A program made the translations under genes and the position numbers. The notes under the pieces were generated by a model. That model ran no database searches. It was not told the DNA's origin and worked only from the letters and a program-made list of their open reading frames with translations. A stretch of DNA of 64,000 nt, from positions 1-64,000 of IMG/VR virus record IMGVR_UViG_3300017792_000017, one strand, 5' to 3'. The stretch comes from a virus. This document shows, piece by piece, positions 18,817 to 27,389 of the stretch (positions within the stretch are counted from its first letter, which is position 1; every line of letters starts with the position of its first letter).

Positions 18817-19242
18817 ATGACTCTTTACGCACATCTTCAACAACTGCGGGTTGAAGCTCTGAAACTTGGTGATTCTTTTTCGTTTACTAAGCTTGGTACT
18901 GTCCTTGGGGAAGCCAAGCAAGTAGCTACGAAAAAAGAGAACCGTGACCCTACTGATGAAGAAGTAATTAGCATTGTCAAGAAGGGTCTTGAAGGCATTG
19001 CAGAAATGCTTGCGCATGAGAAGGATGATCTTAAGCGAGGCGCTCTCATTGCTGAACGCCAGCTTCTTCAAGGCTTCATGCCGACTCAGTTGTCAGAAAC
19101 TGAAATCAAGGTAATCATCGAGAATGCTGCACTGGATAACATCGGCAAGATCATGGCTATCTTCAAGAACAACTACGCAGGTAAATACGATGGAAAGCTT
19201 GTCTCAAAACTCGCTAACGAATTTCTATCAAGTAAGGTTTGA
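18817..19242 (+). CDS. GatB/YqeY domain protein
   Basis: TDEEVISIVKK, LQGFMPTQLSETEI, IGKIM, GKYDGKLVS. Confidence 0.8.
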   Translation: MTLYAHLQQLRVEALKLGDSFSFTKLGTVLGEAKQVATKKENRDPTDEEVISIVKKGLEGIAEMLAHEKDDLKRGALIAERQLLQGFMPTQLSETEIKVIIENAALDNIGKIMAIFKNNYAGKYDGKLVSKLANEFLSSKV

Positions 19243-19496: not shown

Positions 19497-20222
19497 ATGT
19501 CTAATCTTAAAGAAGAATGTCCTACACTTGACACCTCCAAAACGCGTCTTGTGTTCTTGGATATCGACGGAGTTTTGAACTCTGACAAGACTTTCATTCT
19601 TGCAGGGGCATGGCCTAACCTTGAAGTGGACTATGAAGCTGATATGGGCTACTTCGGAGGGCCGAGGGCTAAAGTTGTTAAAGCTCCGTATGTGAAGTAT
19701 CCCGAAGGCATTGATAAGTACGCAGTTGGGCTGCTTAACAAGCTCCTCGTTGCTACCAATGCTCATATCGTTGTCTCATCTACGTGGAGAGAAGGCGTTG
19801 ACATCTACAGTCTTAGGTTGGTGCTTGGCGCTATGGGTGTTGATCCTACTCGTGTTATAGGTAAGACACCTGAGTTCCGTGGTAATCGTGGAGAACAGAT
19901 ATTTGATTTCCTTCAAGGCATTAAAGAAAAACGTTACTACACAGGTCCAGACTTTTTCGTACAGAATGGAAGACTTATTCAGAGTCTATCTAAAGTACCT
20001 GTTACAGTCGAGTCATACGTAATTCTAGATGACATCAATGACTTTCTTCCGCAGCAAATGAAAGACGTTGTATTGACTGATGGGCGCGAAGGCTTGAGCC
20101 TTGCTGATACTTTGCTATGCGGGGCAGCACTCACTGGCAAAGACTTTGAATTGAATCATTTGATTCATGGTGAGGAATATCAAGGACGTATTCTCTGGAC
20201 TGAAAAAGAGAAGTATGAGTGA
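19497..20222 (+). CDS. HAD phosphatase of the 'Swiss Army Knife RNA repair' type
   Basis: VFLDIDGVLNS, IVVSSTWR, RGEQI, YVILDD, TDGREGL. Confidence 0.75.
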   Translation: MSNLKEECPTLDTSKTRLVFLDIDGVLNSDKTFILAGAWPNLEVDYEADMGYFGGPRAKVVKAPYVKYPEGIDKYAVGLLNKLLVATNAHIVVSSTWREGVDIYSLRLVLGAMGVDPTRVIGKTPEFRGNRGEQIFDFLQGIKEKRYYTGPDFFVQNGRLIQSLSKVPVTVESYVILDDINDFLPQQMKDVVLTDGREGLSLADTLLCGAALTGKDFELNHLIHGEEYQGRILWTEKEKYE

Positions 20223-21021: not shown

Positions 21022-21024
21022 TAG

Positions 21025-21555
21025 CTGTGCATGGTGAGTAGGACATTTTCTCCTTCCCTTGATTGAGCAACCTGGGGTTATCCTACAGAATTGCTTTTTG
21101 AACCCCTTTTGGGGGCATGATGAAGTATAGAAGTAACGACAACGTTACTAGAAGTATGTAACATTCTTCGAAAGTTGTCTTCGCCTGCAGCGAAACCCAG
21201 GGACCGAGATGCTCTGGGTTCGAGAACAGCTCATCTAATATAGTTAACTATAAGTTATGAGCTGCAGGTGATGGACATCAAGCACCGCATGAGTTCATCA
21301 TGAACAACGACCTTCGGGTCGCACAGAGTTTGAAGTATCAAACTGGTTCAATAGCGATATCCGTTCTTTAGGGAAAGGGTTAAGTTGGAAGCCAGAGAGT
21401 ATCTGCAACAGTGCTCTACGTTGCTTTTCCGAAAGGCAAAGCAAAGACTCTACCTAGCTTGTAGCTAGGTAAAGCTAATTCTGGAGCTGTGGTACGACGT
21501 CGTCCTCTTGGCCAGGCACCCCTGGTTGGAAGAGACCGTCGTAGGTTCTGCACAG
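21025..21555 (+). ncRNA. Large (~530 nt) structured ncRNA, class unknown
   Basis: Terminal helix CTGTGCA/TGCACAG; nested helices 21116-21124/21294-21302 and 21182-21191/21261-21270; UUCG and GAAA tetraloops; strand inferred from neighbours. Confidence 0.6.
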
Positions 21556-21587
21556 AATGTGTTCAAGCTTATAGTTGTAAAAGTTTC

Positions 21588-21644
21588 GAGAGCCGTCGAA
21601 TTGGATTATCTGCCAAAAAATCTTCCAGTTCAAAATTCGCTTTC
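21588..21644 (+). ncRNA. Y-RNA-like unit 1 (short)
   Basis: GAGAGC-CG..GAATTGGA-TTATC...TCCAGTTC..GCTTTC. Confidence 0.65.
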
Positions 21645-21660
21645 AATAATTTAAGAAGTA

Positions 21661-21670
21661 ATGGTATAAT
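21661..21670 (+). promoter_or_regulatory. Promoter for Y units 2-8
   Basis: TTCAAT-17 nt-TATAAT with TG extension; unit 2 starts 7 nt downstream. Confidence 0.75.
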
Positions 21671-21677
21671 AACCTTA

Positions 21678-21742
21678 GTGAGCCGTTCTTATGTTGGGTT
21701 ATCAATTGGTGATTACTCCCCAGCATTATTCTTTTTGCTCAC
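21678..21742 (+). ncRNA. Y-RNA-like unit 2 (short)
   Basis: GTGAGC-CG...ATGTTGGG-TTATC...CCCAGCAT...TTTGCTCAC. Confidence 0.75.
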
Positions 21743-21796
21743 CCTCGCTTTAATCCTCGCATTGATTCTAAAGAGTCAGTGCCTGAATTAAAGTTC

Positions 21797-21928
21797 ATGG
21801 ACCGATAGAATGGTTTATCTAAACCCAAATCGCAAATTACAGGTTCGAGTCCTGTACTCCGCTGCAGTTGCGGGGTTGGTGAAATTGGTAAACACAGCGA
21901 TTCCAGATCCATTCGATTACTTGTCCAT
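21797..21928 (+). ncRNA. Y-RNA-like unit 3, YrlA type (permuted tRNA-Gly-like module)
   Basis: ATGGAC-CGA...TTGTCCAT; T arm ACAGGTTCGAGTCCTGT, looped acceptor ACTCCGC/GCGGGGT, then D arm. Confidence 0.85.
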
Positions 21929-21937
21929 TCCCATTTC

Positions 21938-22000
21938 ACGGGCCGTTCGATGCTAGGTTATCCCTCTTACTGATTCCCCTAGTTTCATTTCTTTGCCCGT
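21938..22000 (+). ncRNA. Y-RNA-like unit 4 (short)
   Basis: ACGGGC-CG...GCTAGG-TTATC...CCTAGT...TTTGCCCGT. Confidence 0.75.
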
Positions 22001-22010
22001 ATCAATTTTC

Positions 22011-22182
22011 AAACGAACCGAACGCATTAAGGGTTATCTACTATCGGAAAGTTAAACGACAGTCGTATCAGCAGTACTCGGAAACGAGAGATACTTCAAG
22101 AGGGTTAACATTGTTGTACTCTGCTTGAGCTAAAGCTAAGCTGGTGAATCCAGTATCTCCCTTGGCAAACATTTGTTCGTTT
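22011..22182 (+). ncRNA. Y-RNA-like unit 5 (long, non-tRNA module)
   Basis: AAACGAAC-CGA...AAGGG-TTATC...CCCTT...TTTGTTCGTTT with a ~120-nt insert. Confidence 0.7.
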
Positions 22183-22192
22183 TCTCAGTTTC

Positions 22193-22328
22193 GCTGAACC
22201 GCTTGTATTGGTTTATCTACTGTTAATAGAGAGGTCGAAGGTTCGAGTCCTTCTGTGGTTGCCCTACGGGTTGCCGCATAGCTCAGTTTGGTAGAGCGCT
22301 AAAAATTCCAGTACGCCTTTTGTTCAGC
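22193..22328 (+). ncRNA. Y-RNA-like unit 6, YrlA type (permuted tRNA-Asn(GUU))
   Basis: GCTGAAC-CG...TTTGTTCAGC; TCTA-CTGTTAA-TAGA, AGGTC, T arm, looped acceptor, GCTCAGTTTGGTAGAGC D arm. Confidence 0.88.
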
Positions 22329-22337
22329 TTCAATTTT

Positions 22338-22400
22338 GTGAGCCGTTTCGATTTGGATTATCCTTTTAAGATTTCCTCCAGATCACTTTCATTTGCTCAC
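22338..22400 (+). ncRNA. Y-RNA-like unit 7 (short)
   Basis: GTGAGC-CG...GATTTGGA-TTATC...TCCAGATC...TTTGCTCAC. Confidence 0.75.
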
Positions 22401-22408
22401 TACCTCTT

Positions 22409-22539
22409 TACGGGCCGTTAGTGTTAGATTATCACTATTCGGAAGTCGTGGCGTTGGTTCGAATCCAACTGCAGCCTTGAGGGTTGTATAGCTTAGCGGA
22501 TAGAGCACGTAAAATCTTCTAGCACGCCTTTTGCCCGTA
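22409..22539 (+). ncRNA. Y-RNA-like unit 8, YrlA type (permuted tRNA-Arg-like module)
   Basis: TACGGGC-CG...TTTGCCCGTA; T arm GTTGGTTCGAATCCAAC, acceptor TGCAGCC/GGTTGTA, D arm GCTTAGCGGATAGAGC. Confidence 0.85.
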
Positions 22540-22546
22540 TCCCCAT

Positions 22547-22924
22547 CATGACCTTTCGTATTTAACTTTGCAGTTTGGAAAGTGACTATAGAGTAACTCT
22601 GTAGGTATCAACTTCCCGCTTCCGTTGCGTACCACAAGACTCCGCTGCGCTACGTCTTGCGCTACTCCACTACAGCCGGAGATCCGCTGGGTCGCTTTAC
22701 AGCCCAGCATGAGGTCAGGTCATGACCGCAGTACCACTAGACTTACGTATCTCAAGCAGTTGTTAGATTGCTGGCTTAGAGTAACTCTAAGTTATAGCTT
22801 TCCGCTCTACGTCCTTCGGACTACGGCGGAGGAGATGATGAGCACGAGGAGCATCTCCAGGGCCCTGGTAACCAGGATCCGTAGATGTCTCAGCTCAGCA
22901 CCACATGTGGTAAGTTAGAAGTAC
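22547..22924 (+). ncRNA. Two paralogous ~180-190-nt structured RNAs (22547-22724 and ~22731-22924)
   Basis: Closing helices CATGACCT/AGGTCATG and GACTTAC/GTAAGTT; shared TAGAGTAACTCT hairpin (22589, 22777) followed by CTTYCCGCT. Confidence 0.55.
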
Positions 22925-22926
22925 CC

Positions 22927-22967
22927 GAAGGTCTGTTTCCATCTTGGATTCAGACCTTCTTTTTTTA
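22927..22967 (+). terminator. Terminator ending the ncRNA island
   Basis: GAAGGTCTG/CAGACCTTC stem followed by T8. Confidence 0.75.
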
Positions 22968-23007
22968 GTCGATTTAAACTTTGTTCCCTAAACTTAAGGA
23001 GCCTCAA

Positions 23008-24639
23008 ATGTCATTCAATACCCTCGCAAAGAATACCAATACCCGTACTGTTGCACGTACCACGCCACAGAATCGCCCGGCTGGTAACGCTCCGGTAGCT
23101 CAGGTCAAGAACAACGCTGGCGGCTTTGTATTTGAGATCTCTGGCCTTCAAAAGCTGGATCGATTCCTTATCATCGGCACGAGCGGTGGTACGTTCTACG
23201 CTAGCGAAAAGGACATCACGAAGCAGAACACAGATGAGGTCGTGAAGCTCATCAAGGCAAATGGCAAGGTTGTGGTTGATCGTGTGGTAGAGATCAGCCA
23301 AGCTGGCCGTGCCAAGAACAATGACTATGCGCTTCTGGTCATGGCTCTGGTCTTCACCCACGGTGACGTTGCAACCAAGATGTATGCGAAGGATAAGCTG
23401 AACCTCGTGGCTCGTACTGGCACGCACTTCATGCACTTCGTTGCATTCGCAAATGGTATGCGTGGTTGGGGCCGTTCGCTCAAGAACGTAGTTCAGAACT
23501 GGTATTCCTCAAAGGATACCGATAAGCTTGCGTTCCAGATCGTGAAGTACAAGCAACGTGACGGCTGGTCCCACAAGGACATCATGCGTCTGGCTCACGT
23601 CAAGCCTGGCACTGATCCGGTTCGTCAGAACCTGTACAAGTTTATCAACAAGGGTGCAGAGTCGCTGTCGCAAGGTGACCTCGTGCCTCAGCTTCTGATT
23701 GCTGCAGAGCAAGCCAAGACTGCAGATACGAAGACGTTGATTAAGCTGATCCAGGATTTCAAGCTCACGCATGAAATGATCCCGAATGAGCAGAAGAACG
23801 ACCCGAAGGTTTGGGAAGCTCTTGTGCCTCACATGGGTCTAGGTGCGCTGGTTCGCAACCTGAACAAGCTCACGGCAGTTGGTTTGATCAAGCCTTTCTC
23901 GGAAACGAGCAAGATTGTATCTGCCAAGCTCCACGACGTTGAAGCCATCCGCAAGGAACGTCTGCATCCGATGTCAATCGTAGTTGCGCAGAAGATCTAC
24001 GCGCAAGGCCGTGGCGATAAGGGTTCACTCGTATGGACTCCGGCCCGTACCATTGTGGCTGATCTGGAAGATGCATTCTACGTTTCGTTTGAAGCAGTAG
24101 AGCCGTCCGGTAAGAACATTCTGTTGGGCCTGGATGTATCGGGTTCAATGAGTGCTCCGATCAGCAATACGCCTCTGTTGAGCTGTGCTGAAGGTACGGC
24201 AATCATGGCTATGGTCACCGCTCGCACAGAGCCGTGGACTGAGATCCGTGGTTTCACGAGCGGCGCTAATGGCTTTAAGGATCTCGGGATCACATCCAAA
24301 GATACTTTGGCTACGGCGTGTGGTAAGGTTCGTGCGCACAACTTCGGTGGTACGAATTGTGCATTGCCGTTCGAGTATGCGCTTCAACATAAGTGGGACG
24401 TTGACGCTGTCTGTGTTTACACGGATAACGAAACGTGGTCTGGCGGCCAACACGTGTTCCAAGCGGTACGCAAGTATCGTCAGGGCATGAACAAGCCTGA
24501 AGCTAAGCTGATCACGGTCGGTATGGCTGTGAACAACTTCAGCATTGCTGATCCGACTGACCGCAATATGCTGGACGTGGTTGGTTTCGATACGGCAACT
24601 CCGAGGTTCATTTCGGAATTCATTGCTGGCAACCTGTAA
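23008..24639 (+). CDS. rsr: Ro60 / Rsr TROVE-vWA RNA-binding protein
   Basis: QVKNNAGGFVF..LDRFLIIGTSGGTFY, GWGR, VKYKQRDGWSHKD, MIDAS DVSGSM, TDNETW, IADPTD..MLDVVGFD; AAGGAG RBS before ATG 23008. Confidence 0.95.
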   Translation: MSFNTLAKNTNTRTVARTTPQNRPAGNAPVAQVKNNAGGFVFEISGLQKLDRFLIIGTSGGTFYASEKDITKQNTDEVVKLIKANGKVVVDRVVEISQAGRAKNNDYALLVMALVFTHGDVATKMYAKDKLNLVARTGTHFMHFVAFANGMRGWGRSLKNVVQNWYSSKDTDKLAFQIVKYKQRDGWSHKDIMRLAHVKPGTDPVRQNLYKFINKGAESLSQGDLVPQLLIAAEQAKTADTKTLIKLIQDFKLTHEMIPNEQKNDPKVWEALVPHMGLGALVRNLNKLTAVGLIKPFSETSKIVSAKLHDVEAIRKERLHPMSIVVAQKIYAQGRGDKGSLVWTPARTIVADLEDAFYVSFEAVEPSGKNILLGLDVSGSMSAPISNTPLLSCAEGTAIMAMVTARTEPWTEIRGFTSGANGFKDLGITSKDTLATACGKVRAHNFGGTNCALPFEYALQHKWDVDAVCVYTDNETWSGGQHVFQAVRKYRQGMNKPEAKLITVGMAVNNFSIADPTDRNMLDVVGFDTATPRFISEFIAGNL

Positions 24640-24659: not shown

Positions 24660-24688
24660 AAAAGCCGGGTTTCGACTCGGCTTTTTTT
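24660..24688 (+). terminator. Terminator after Ro60
   Basis: AGCCGGGT-TTCG-ACTCGGCT followed by a T-tract. Confidence 0.85.
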
Positions 24689-26531: not shown

Positions 26532-27389
26532 ATGAAAACAGTAATTCTTTACCATGCTTCATGCATGGACGGTACAGGCGCACGTTACGCAGCTTGGAAG
26601 AAGTTTGGTGACAATGCTGAATACCATGCTTGTCAGTATGGTCAAAATCTACCCGATTTTCCTCAGACGAGTGACACTGAGGTATTCATGTTAGACTTCA
26701 GTATGCCCAGGACAGCTTTAGAGGCACTCAGGAGCCGTTGCAAGAGGGTAGTGGTCATCGACCATCACGCCACTGCTCAGGAGGCCCTCCTAGGCCTTTC
26801 TGACGTGGTCTTCGATTTTACCAAGTCTGGGGCAGTGCTCGCATGGGAATATTTCCACCCCAACGACCCTGTTCCGATGCTGCTTCAATACGTTCAGGAC
26901 CGTGACCTGTGGAAGTTCAAATTTCCTCTAAGTGCAGCAGTGCATTCAGGGCTTGGACTACTCAAAGGCCGTATGGATGCATGGAATAACTATGCTGAGC
27001 AGGAAGAAGAACTGCCAAAGCTTATCGACATTGGTAACACTTTGCTCCAACAACAGAAACAAATCGTTGAAGCAGCAGTGCCAAAAACAGTCAGGGTAGT
27101 GAATTTTGATAAGTATCAAGCAGGGATTCTAAACACAGGTGAGTTCATCTCTGAGAAGGGTGCAGCAATCTGTGAAGACAAAACGCTTAACGTTGATCTT
27201 GCGATTATGTGGTTCATTACCAAAGACAATGATGTAGTGTTGTCAATGCGTTCACATAAAGATAGTGGCGTTAACGTAGCTGATCTATGTAAAGCACTAG
27301 GCGGTGGCGGACATCCCAACGCTGCTGGTTGTAGAGTTGGTTTCAAGATTCTTGAACATATCCTTAACGACGAATGGTGGAGTGAATAA
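26532..27389 (+). CDS. DHH/DHHA1 phosphoesterase (NrnB-like)
   Basis: YHASCMDG, LDFS, IDHH, KSGA, QDRDLW, GGGGHPNAAG. Confidence 0.88.
   Translation: MKTVILYHASCMDGTGARYAAWKKFGDNAEYHACQYGQNLPDFPQTSDTEVFMLDFSMPRTALEALRSRCKRVVVIDHHATAQEALLGLSDVVFDFTKSGAVLAWEYFHPNDPVPMLLQYVQDRDLWKFKFPLSAAVHSGLGLLKGRMDAWNNYAEQEEELPKLIDIGNTLLQQQKQIVEAAVPKTVRVVNFDKYQAGILNTGEFISEKGAAICEDKTLNVDLAIMWFITKDNDVVLSMRSHKDSGVNVADLCKALGGGGHPNAAGCRVGFKILEHILNDEWWSE

What the first reader, a model, noticed from the sequence alone, without database searches (positions are those of the whole stretch)
21588..24639. Phage Ro60 gene preceded by a tandem array of eight Y-RNA-like genes
Seen: eight units (21588, 21678, 21797, 21938, 22011, 22193, 22338, 22409) share one scaffold. 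It has a terminal helix whose 5' strand ends RRC followed by CG and whose 3' strand starts TTG (TCG in unit 1), an internal loop, a second helix, then an invariant TTATC. Helix sequences differ but pairing is kept (GTGAGC/GCTCAC, ATGGAC/GTCCAT, ACGGGC/GCCCGT, GCTGAAC/GTTCAGC), which is compensatory change. A promoter sits 7 nt before unit 2. Known: bacterial Ro60 (Rsr) binds Y RNAs through such a stem, and YrlA RNAs carry a T arm-acceptor-D arm module; the characterised loci I know have one or two Y RNAs. Inference: one Ro60 with a library of eight interchangeable RNAs in three architectures (4 short, 3 tRNA-like, 1 other) is a modular phage RNP system.
Basis: partly seen in the sequence, partly recalled or inferred. 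Interest (0 to 1): 0.92.

Follow-up and report, generated by a model that had tools for sequence, protein, structure and literature searches.

The report
Phage Ro60 gene with eight Y RNAs
A large uncultured phage carries a gene for the RNA-binding ring protein Ro60 preceded by eight small partner ("Y") RNA genes in a row; the pairing is a known kind of system, but the array is unusually large, and its shared handle has the same hallmarks as animal Y RNAs, including a UUAUC motif.

Summary
All eight units lie at the stated coordinates and share one scaffold. It has a closing helix with a bulged C, a C-G pair and a G-U pair (CCG...UUG), an internal loop, a second helix, and an invariant UUAUC.

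This is far beyond chance. All eight sequence-only anchors in the array fold into both helices, against 1 of 46 anchors elsewhere in the genome. A covariance model built from short units hits 81 viral and 57 bacterial sites, all on the Ro60 strand. Paired cells are 94%, against 68% in shuffles, and 13 of 15 pairs show double changes.

The downstream gene is a full-length Ro60/Rsr. Three units carry the YrlA T-arm, acceptor and D-arm module, four are short hairpins, and one has a separate 100-nt domain.

A conserved extended -10 promoter precedes unit 2. A conserved terminator follows the array, and 8-10-nt U-rich spacers suggest one processed precursor.

Multi-unit arrays with this scaffold are common next to viral (0-9 units) and bacterial (0-7 units) Ro60 genes, so this is a large example of a widespread layout. 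This scan has noted similar arrays on other DNA.

The handle matches nematode sbRNA and vertebrate Y RNA architecture. I rate it a new variant of a known kind; Ro60 binding and RNA processing are untested.

The parts
21588..21644 (+). Unit 1: short Y RNA (57 nt); 3' side reads TCG, giving a G-C pair instead of G-U; lies upstream of the mapped promoter
   Evidence: Descriptor hit; CM R1 51.4 bits; fold z -2.25
21643..21670 (+). Promoter-like site: weak -35 TTCAAT (overlaps the end of unit 1), 17-nt spacer, extended -10 TGGTATAAT; the -10 ends 7 nt before unit 2
   Evidence: Sequence; TGGTATAAT invariant in 5 related phages (A7); only 2 TGNTATAAT matches in the 64-kb window
21678..21742 (+). Unit 2: short Y RNA (65 nt), probably the 5' end of the primary transcript
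   Evidence: R1 60.5 bits; fold z -3.57
21797..21928 (+). Unit 3: YrlA-type Y RNA (132 nt) with T-arm (GGTTCGAGTCC at 21842-21852), closed acceptor-like hairpin and D-arm-like hairpin
   Evidence: weak Rfam YrlA match, 15.9 bits
21938..22000 (+). Unit 4: short Y RNA (63 nt)
   Evidence: R1 53.9 bits; in orthologues the second helix is fully replaced but still pairs
22011..22182 (+). Unit 5: long Y RNA (172 nt) with a branched, non-tRNA-like internal domain of about 100 nt that includes a GAAA-capped hairpin
   Evidence: consensus fold of 5 orthologues has 40 pairs, 16 with double changes; no Rfam match
22193..22328 (+). Unit 6: YrlA-type Y RNA (136 nt): T-arm 22238-22252, acceptor-like hairpin 22253-22279, D-arm 22280-22297
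   Evidence: Rfam YrlA 43.6 bits, E 6.5e-8, full model length, below the gathering score of 69
22338..22400 (+). Unit 7: short Y RNA (63 nt) with loop UUAUCCUUUUAAGAUUUCC, which is conserved in the related phages
   Evidence: R1 63.9 bits
22409..22539 (+). Unit 8: YrlA-type Y RNA (131 nt), T-loop GGTTCGAATCC at 22456-22466 and a canonical D-arm
   Evidence: R1 37.4 bits although not in the seed alignment; Rfam YrlA 22.3 bits
22546..22925 (+). 380-nt structured RNA of unknown role, lying between the array and the terminator (same predicted transcript)
   Evidence: Fold z -3.73; conserved only in the 5 clade relatives; the 97-aa ORF here is not conserved
22927..22966 (+). Intrinsic terminator: GAAGGTCTG...CAGACCTTC followed by T7, ending 41 nt before the Ro60 ATG
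   Evidence: Sequence; conserved in relatives with a compensatory GGCCTG/CAGGCC change in L007 (A8)
22996..23001 (+). Ribosome-binding site AAGGAG of the Ro60 gene
   Evidence: Invariant in 5 relatives
23008..24639 (+). Ro60/Rsr gene (543 aa): TROVE HEAT-repeat ring plus vWA domain with MIDAS motif D-x-S-x-S (LDVSGSM)
   Evidence: Pfam PF05731 E 1e-35 and PF25045 E 4.5e-54; PDB 2nvo Rsr E 4e-111, human and Xenopus Ro60 about 1e-94; D376, S378 and S380 invariant
24663..24688 (+). Terminator-like hairpin plus T-run after the Ro60 gene
   Evidence: Sequence; read by eye, not listed by the scan

Best explanation
This is the Ro60-Y RNA locus of a large uncultured tailed phage. Eight Y RNA genes lie head to tail directly upstream of, and on the same strand as, a full-length Ro60 (Rsr) gene.

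Inferred expression: units 2-8 and a 380-nt structured RNA are transcribed from a conserved extended -10 promoter as one precursor. That precursor stops, mostly, at a conserved intrinsic terminator 41 nt before the Ro60 start codon. Read-through would supply the Ro60 mRNA. The precursor is probably cut in the 8-10-nt U-rich spacers (consensus about UUCARUUUY) into separate RNAs of 57-172 nt.

Inferred function: each RNA offers Ro60 the same handle. The handle is a closing helix with a bulged C followed by a C-G and a G-U pair, an internal loop, an upper helix ending in UGG(G/A), and UUAUC at the start of the apical domain. The apical domain is the variable cargo. Four units have a short pyrimidine-rich loop (YrlB-like). 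Three have a permuted tRNA-like T-arm, acceptor and D-arm module (YrlA-like). One has a branched 100-nt domain.

By analogy with bacterial Rsr-Y RNA-PNPase (RYPER) and with Thermus phage phiLo Ro60, the handle would anchor and gate Ro60, and the cargo would tether it to different host partners. One phage protein could thus form up to eight different RNPs during infection.

What is shown: the anatomy, covariation, conservation, linkage to Ro60 and protein identity. What is inferred: transcription, processing, Ro60 binding and partner recruitment.
For: Protein: TROVE plus Ro60 vWA domains and full-length similarity to solved Rsr and Ro60 structures.

Units: all eight fit one scaffold. In the anchor test, 8 of 8 anchors in the array fold into both helices, against 1 of 46 elsewhere.

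Linkage to Ro60: covariance model R1 gives 81 hits in 750 kb of viral Ro60 loci and 57 hits in 671 kb of bacterial Ro60 loci, all on the Ro60 strand. Those with the top bacterial scores end about 90-150 nt before the Ro60 match.

Covariation: 94.2% of cells are paired, against 68.4% in shuffles and 36-47% for slid partners. 13 of 15 pairs show double changes, while the C-G and G-U pairs are nearly invariant. Orthologous units in related phages keep pairing with replaced helices; the U4 second helix reads GCTAGG/CCTAGT, GAATATCGA/TCGATATTC or CTCGG/CCGAG.

UUAUC: it is the top 5-mer after the upper helix even when the search does not require it, with 49 viral and 53 bacterial cases, on the plus strand only.

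tRNA-like modules: Rfam YrlA E 6.5e-8 for U6; T-loops; covarying T and D arms.

Expression signals: promoter, terminator and RBS are conserved.

Literature: Y RNAs are encoded next to rsr, at least two per species, and in M. smegmatis are processed from one precursor (PMC4201824). A phage Ro60 binds two phage-encoded Yrl RNAs and host PNPase (PMC12135203).
Against: There are no expression, end-mapping or binding data for this uncultured phage.

No unit reaches an Rfam gathering score. The best YrlA match is 43.6 bits against a threshold of 69. There is no Y_RNA or sbRNA hit at E<=10.

The YrlA motif GNCGAAN0-1G (PMC4201824) is not present in the units as read by eye.

The -35 element is weak, and the TGNTATAAT count in the window is no higher than chance.

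Unit 1 lies upstream of the only promoter found.

Fold z-scores of the long units are modest, -1.25 to -2.0.

The R1-based alignment is fitted to the model, which favours pairing. The E-values of R1 are rough.
Confidence: 0.8

Rival explanations
1. The array is mainly a panel of tRNA-like decoys or baits that act on their own, for example against host tRNA-cleaving or tRNA-modifying defence enzymes. Ro60 would be a neighbour or merely a stabiliser, not the functional core.
For: Three units carry near-canonical T and D arms. In other Ro60 loci some units of this scaffold enclose a full Rfam tRNA match, and many such loci sit in tRNA gene arrays. An RNA-repair-type HAD_SAK_2 gene lies upstream.
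Against: Five of the eight units have no tRNA-like part yet keep the same invariant handle. The handle is found only on the Ro60 strand at Ro60 loci and matches the Ro60-binding helix of animal Y RNAs. No RtcB, Rnl2-type ligase or CCA-adding enzyme was found in the 145 kb held.
Confidence: 0.1
2. Only some units are functional Y RNAs. The rest are decaying duplicates produced by tandem duplication, so the 'library of eight' overstates the working set.
For: Copy number varies within the clade. The window lacks a ninth unit type that L007 and L009 have, and L007 lacks the U6 type. U6 and U8 are paralogous, about 70% identical. U1 has TCG instead of TTG and lies outside the mapped promoter.
Against: Each unit type is kept in relatives whose Ro60 is only 75-93% identical, with compensatory changes in both helices and an intact CCG, UUAUC and YG. 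No unit shows a broken helix.
Confidence: 0.07
3. The structured region is a cis-acting leader of the Ro60 mRNA (attenuators or stability elements), not a set of separate RNAs.
For: It lies on the same strand directly upstream of the gene. No promoter is visible between the terminator and the Ro60 start.
Against: A strong, conserved terminator separates the array from the gene. In other loci the same units lie downstream of Ro60, as in L081 and L036. Eight modular units with covarying closing helices and short, regular spacers look like a tRNA-style processed array.
Confidence: 0.03

Closest known systems
Bacterial Rsr (Ro60) with YrlA/YrlB Y RNAs (S. Typhimurium, M. smegmatis; Rfam RF02553; Chen et al. 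2014, PMC4201824)
   Same: The Y RNAs are encoded beside rsr on the same strand. [quoted passage not shown] In M. smegmatis they are processed from one precursor.
   Different: There are eight genes rather than two. The handle uses CCG...UUAUC...UUG rather than the GNCGAAN0-1G motif. Rfam YrlA scores are below the gathering score. There is an additional 172-nt architecture, and the setting is a phage genome without rtcBA.
Thermus phage phiLo Ro60 with Yrl1/Yrl2 (PMC12135203; PDB 9KOP, 9L5Y)
   Same: A phage-encoded Ro60 with Y-like RNAs upstream. Binding to the RNAs and to host PNPase was shown in vitro.
   Different: The protein is only distantly related (E 1e-9 over a partial match). There are two RNAs, defined by a CGAA motif, and no tandem array of eight.
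Nematode stem-bulge RNAs and vertebrate Y RNAs (Rfam RF01656; PMC4450293, PMC4726728; hY4 5' fragment in PMC5331234, Table 3)
   Same: Both have a lower stem with a single bulged C, an internal loop, an upper stem with UG-CA and G-C clamps, and UUAUC at the 5' end of the loop. The hY4 fragment reads ...GGUCCG-AUGGU-UAGUGGG-UUAUC..., and unit 2 reads GUGAGCCG-UUCUU-AUGUUGGG-UUAUC. Nine bacterial rsr-adjacent members of the same R1 family pass the RF01656 gathering score.
   Different: The window's own units give no RF01656 or Y_RNA hit at E<=10. They are not Pol III genes. In animals UUAUC has been tied to DNA replication, not to Ro60. The cargo domains are different.
D. radiodurans Rsr-Yrn1-PNPase (RYPER)
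   Same: It is the closest solved protein relative (2nvo, E 4e-111). It supplies the model in which the Y RNA both gates Ro60 and tethers it to an exoribonuclease.
   Different: The partner proteins of the phage RNPs are unknown, and no PNPase link was tested here.

Membership tests
Ro60/Rsr protein (TROVE + vWA) | TROVE domain (HEAT-repeat ring) | tested here: met
   PF05731, E 1e-35, 124 bits against a cut-off of 23
Ro60/Rsr protein (TROVE + vWA) | C-terminal Ro60-type vWA domain with MIDAS D-x-S-x-S | tested here: met
   PF25045, E 4.5e-54; LDVSGSM, with D376, S378 and S380 invariant in 18 homologues
Ro60/Rsr protein (TROVE + vWA) | Full-length similarity to a solved Ro60 | tested here: met
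   2nvo residues 11-533, E 4e-111; 9nen and 1yvp about 1e-94
Y RNA (generic) | Encoded next to Ro60, on the same strand | tested here: met
   The array ends 469 nt before the ATG. All 138 R1 hits at Ro60 loci are on the Ro60 strand.
Y RNA (generic) | 5' and 3' ends pair into a stem that holds a conserved bulged helix (the Ro60 site) | tested here: met
   All 8 units have the bulged C with CG/UG. C-G occurs in 65 of 68 distinct sequences. The next pair is G-U in 58 and G-C in 7 of 68. Helix 1 is 97.9% paired, with 5 of 7 pairs covarying.
Y RNA (generic) | Bound and stabilised by Ro60 | not testable with these tools
   Needs RIP, EMSA or a Ro60 knockout
YrlA (Rfam RF02553) | T-arm, closed acceptor-like stem and D-arm module | tested here: met
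   U3, U6 and U8
YrlA (Rfam RF02553) | Score at or above the gathering threshold (69 bits) | tested here: not met
   43.6, 22.3 and 15.9 bits; no hit in the gathering-threshold search
YrlA (Rfam RF02553) | GNCGAAN0-1G motif near the 5' end (PMC4201824) | tested here: not met
   The units read RRCCG followed by variable bases. None fits the motif when the sequences are read by eye.
Nematode sbRNA (Rfam RF01656) / vertebrate Y RNA | Bulged-C lower stem, upper stem, and UUAUC at the 5' end of the loop (PMC4450293) | tested here: met
   All 8 units. UUAUC is recovered without being required by the search.
Nematode sbRNA (Rfam RF01656) / vertebrate Y RNA | Score at or above the Rfam gathering threshold | tested here: not met
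   No RF01656 or RF00019 hit at E<=10 in the window. Nine bacterial members of the R1 family do pass RF01656, at 38.3-44.9 bits.

The most novel reading that the evidence does not exclude
The CCG / upper-stem / UUAUC / UUG handle may be one ancient Ro60-linked module shared by phage, bacterial, nematode sbRNA and vertebrate Y RNAs. If so, UUAUC, so far tied only to DNA replication in animals, would be a Ro60-RNP element. Phages would exploit the module by hanging up to nine different cargoes on it, retargeting a single Ro60 to several host RNA machines during infection.
Probability: 0.35. Interest if true: 0.8.

Novelty: new variant of a known kind. Interest (0 to 1): 0.6.

Why it matters
Ro60-Y RNA particles are conserved from bacteria to humans, where Ro60 is a lupus and Sjogren autoantigen. 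How the variable part of a Y RNA directs the protein is still poorly understood.

A compact phage locus with one Ro60 and eight RNAs that share one handle but carry three kinds of cargo is a natural experiment in modular RNP targeting. It could be cloned and tested as a single 3-kb fragment.

The handle also carries the animal sbRNA/Y hallmarks, including UUAUC, and bacterial relatives pass a nematode sbRNA model. This challenges the published view that bacterial Y RNAs are not homologous to animal ones (PMC4726728). It also gives a simple system for asking what UUAUC does.

Finally, the short units and the 172-nt type are not recognised by any current Rfam family at its gathering threshold in this window. 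A new covariance model would annotate hundreds of loci.

Tried and rejected
- The Rfam gathering-threshold search of the whole window found only a tRNA. ARAGORN sees no tRNA in the array.
- Megablast of the locus against GenBank phages found nothing. Cultured phages with Ro60 are all below 60% identity and are mostly actinophages.
- The nearest cultured relatives by terminase, Salmonella phage Arash and Vibrio phage D69, lack a TROVE gene, so no cultured model of this clade has the system.
- The CM search with filters off missed the long units, because the apical insertions exceed the model's window. For the long units I relied on the descriptor, the Rfam YrlA match and alignments of orthologues.
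- My first descriptor was too strict and missed five units; I corrected it.
- The MAFFT seed alignment misplaces a few 3' strands, for example in L013b. The CM-fitted alignment A4 was used for the pair counts, with the bias noted.
- RtcB, Rnl2-type RNA ligase and CCA-adding enzyme were not found in the 145 kb held.
- I rejected the ORFs that overlap the array or the 380-nt RNA as genes. The ORFs in the 380-nt RNA are not conserved in relatives, and the array units differ by 1-nt length changes.
- The reviews PMC10870794, PMC6047535 and PMC6542706 are not held. I could not check whether large Y RNA arrays or a bacterial UUAUC motif are mentioned there.
- A collection-wide pattern scan for the handle was not run, because I estimated thousands of chance matches.


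Full report
**Setting.** The window is the first 64 kb of a 144,968-bp IMG/VR virus record, linear and estimated 79% complete. It is a tailed phage with terminase, tape-measure and tail-fibre genes. Its nearest cultured relatives by terminase are Salmonella phage Arash (46% identity) and Vibrio phages D69, D181 and D148 (43%). Arash and D69, the two searched, lack a TROVE gene.

**The protein.** The ORF at 23008-24639 (543 aa) carries Pfam TROVE (E 1e-35) and the Ro60 vWA domain (E 4.5e-54). It aligns end to end with D. radiodurans Rsr (2nvo, E 4e-111) and with human and Xenopus Ro60 (about 1e-94). The MIDAS residues D376, S378 and S380 are invariant among 18 homologues. It is a bona fide Ro60.

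**The units.** Reading the sequence, folding each unit and running a structural descriptor confirm all eight units at the stated coordinates.
- Each has a 5-7-bp closing helix, then a bulged C followed by a C-G and a G-U pair. This reads 5' CCG and 3' UUG, or UCG in unit 1.
- An asymmetric internal loop follows, then a 6-8-bp upper helix that usually ends in UGG(G/A), then an invariant UUAUC.
- Helix sequences differ from unit to unit, but every one pairs.
- Units 3 to 8 are separated by only 8-10 nt of U-rich spacer, with a consensus of about TTCARTTTY across the clade.

**Is it more than chance?**
- The descriptor finds about 0.85 hits per 145 kb (both strands) in shuffles, against 8 within 950 nt.
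- A test that does not select on structure uses the sequence-only anchor CCG-N7-19-TTATC. It occurs 54 times in the genome (55 expected). All 8 anchors in the array have both helices; only 1 of the other 46 does.
- A covariance model (R1) was built from 22 short units of several phages. It finds the four short units and also unit 8, which was not in the seed.
- Across 84 sources (750 kb) of viral Ro60 loci, R1 gives 81 hits at E<=0.01, all on the Ro60 strand. Across 80 bacterial Ro60 loci (671 kb) it gives 57 hits, again all on the Ro60 strand. The top-scoring ones end about 90-150 nt before the gene.
- On the 68 distinct sequences, 94.2% of cells pair. The figure is 68.4% in shuffles (0 of 500 reach the observed value) and 36-47% when partners are slid.
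- 13 of 15 pairs show changes on both sides. The C-G pair (65 of 68) and the G-U pair (58 G-U, 7 G-C) stay nearly fixed.
- That alignment is fitted to the model, so it leans towards pairing. Orthologous units identified by position tell the same story. The upper helix of unit 4 is GCTAGG/CCTAGT here, GAATATCGA/TCGATATTC in L007 and CTCGG/CCGAG in L009.

**Architectures.**
- Units 1, 2, 4 and 7 (57-65 nt) have only a 13-20-nt apical loop. In units 2, 4 and 7 the AUC of UUAUC can pair with a downstream GAU.
- Units 3, 6 and 8 (131-136 nt) carry a T-arm with GGTTCGARTCC, which occurs only here and in one true tRNA in the window. They also carry a closed acceptor-like hairpin and a D-arm.
- In ten orthologues and paralogues the T stem and D stem covary. 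Rfam YrlA matches unit 6 over the full model at 43.6 bits (E 6.5e-8), unit 8 at 22.3 bits and unit 3 at 15.9 bits. All are below the gathering score of 69.
- Unit 5 (172 nt) has a branched 100-nt domain that is conserved with compensatory changes in five phages. It matches no Rfam family.

**Expression signals.** TGGTATAAT (extended -10) lies at 21662-21670, 7 nt before unit 2, and is invariant in five relatives although the flanks vary. By count alone such sites are no more frequent than chance, and the -35 element is weak. The array and a 380-nt structured RNA (z -3.7, clade-specific, non-coding) are followed by a conserved terminator at 22927-22966. That terminator shows a compensatory change in L007. 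The conserved RBS and ATG of Ro60 follow it. I infer one precursor that is cut in the spacers, with terminator read-through feeding Ro60. This parallels M. smegmatis, where YrlA and YrlB come from one precursor upstream of rsr (PMC4201824). Unit 1 lies upstream of the promoter, so its transcription is unexplained.

**How unusual is eight?**
- Characterised systems have about two Y RNAs: S. Typhimurium, M. smegmatis and D. radiodurans (PMC4201824), and Thermus phage phiLo (PMC12135203).
- A slightly relaxed descriptor on 81 viral Ro60 loci gives 0-9 units per locus on the Ro60 strand, 152 in total against 17 on the other strand. Fifteen loci have four or more.
- The window's clade has 6-9 units. 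A contig whose Ro60 is only 42% identical (L037) has 7-8. Cultured Mycobacterium phage Ava3 has three units in the gap before its Ro gene. Gordonia phage BearBQ has one.
- In 80 bacterial Ro60 loci the range is 0-7, with 13 loci at four or more.
- Within the clade there are nine unit types. The window has lost the last one, and L007 has lost the unit 6 type.
- Multi-unit arrays are therefore a common but, in the papers I could search, undescribed feature. This window is near the top of the range.
- This scan has repeatedly noted similar arrays on other DNA. I treated those notes as leads only.

**Link to animal Y RNAs.**
- Nematode sbRNAs and vertebrate Y RNAs are defined by a lower stem with one bulged C, an upper stem with a UG-CA core and G-C clamps, and a conserved UUAUC at the 5' end of the loop (PMC4450293, PMC4726728).
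- A published hY4 5' fragment reads GGCUGGUCCG-AUGGU-UAGUGGG-UUAUC (PMC5331234, Table 3). Unit 2 reads GUGAGCCG-UUCUU-AUGUUGGG-UUAUC, which is the same order and nearly the same spacing.
- UUAUC is not an artefact of my search. When the descriptor does not require it, it is still by far the commonest 5-mer after the upper helix on the Ro60 strand (49 viral, 53 bacterial). It is absent from the top 5-mers on the other strand.
- Nine short RNAs just upstream of bacterial rsr genes pass the gathering score of Rfam RF01656, a nematode sbRNA family (38.3-44.9 bits). The phage-derived model R1 hits the same sites.
- The window's own units do not reach RF01656 or Y_RNA at E<=10. I therefore do not file them in those Rfam families.
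[quoted passage not shown] I found no paper linking UUAUC to bacterial or phage Y RNAs. Three key reviews were not available.

**Mechanism.** The most likely reading (confidence 0.8) is a Ro60-Y RNA system. The shared handle binds the outer surface of the Ro60 ring, as in the Xenopus and Deinococcus systems. The variable apical domain tethers partners, as PNPase is tethered in RYPER and in phage phiLo (PMC4726728, PMC12135203). Eight cargoes on one handle would let one phage protein form several RNPs. Ro60 binding, processing and partner identity are all inferred. I considered three rivals: decoys independent of Ro60, partly decayed duplicates, and a cis-acting leader. I rate all three unlikely, for the reasons given under each.

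**Context.** Upstream genes include a HAD_SAK_2 'RNA-repair' HAD protein and a YqeY-like protein. Downstream are a deaminase and a DHH/DHHA1 phosphoesterase. RtcB, Rnl2-type ligase and CCA-adding enzyme are absent from the 145 kb held.

**Verdict.** It is a new variant of a known kind: a large, modular Y RNA array with a metazoan-type handle in a phage. Interest 0.6.

Noticed in passing
window 22546-22925: A 380-nt highly structured RNA (z -3.7) with two AGAGTAACTCT hairpins lies between unit 8 and the terminator. It is conserved only in the five clade relatives. The overlapping 97-aa ORF is not conserved, and there is no Rfam match.
   Followed up: partly
window 21022-21587: A further 560 nt of structured non-coding sequence lies upstream of unit 1 and includes a GGGGTTATC near 21075. 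I only folded it.
   Followed up: no
L102 3488-3559; L133 1899-1969; L109 3845-3914; L126 1741-1807; L104 1680-1749; L108 2628-2697; L153 1429-1496; L096 3842-3910; L099 3841-3909: Short RNAs just upstream of bacterial rsr genes (Verrucomicrobiota, Terriglobales and Anaerolineales MAGs) pass the Rfam gathering score of the nematode sbRNA family RF01656.
   Followed up: partly
L037 1795-1918 and 1928-2069; L036 5976-6116; L127 3527-3637: Some units with the Y handle enclose a complete Rfam tRNA match. The cargo there is a whole tRNA, not the permuted YrlA module.
   Followed up: no
L044, L081, L111, L140, L096, L098 (whole loci): Many viral and bacterial Ro60 genes sit inside arrays of 10-25 tRNA genes on the same strand.
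   Followed up: no
window 19497-20222, 18817-19242, 26532-27389: The neighbouring genes encode a HAD_SAK_2 (RNA-repair 'Swiss army knife' HAD) protein, a YqeY-like protein and a DHH/DHHA1 phosphoesterase. Together with Ro60 they may form an RNA-metabolism module.
   Followed up: no
L007 3421-3536; L009 3445-3551: Relatives carry a ninth unit type with a T-arm (TTACC instead of TTATC in L009) that the window has lost. L007 has in turn lost the unit 6 type, so units are gained and lost within the clade.
   Followed up: partly
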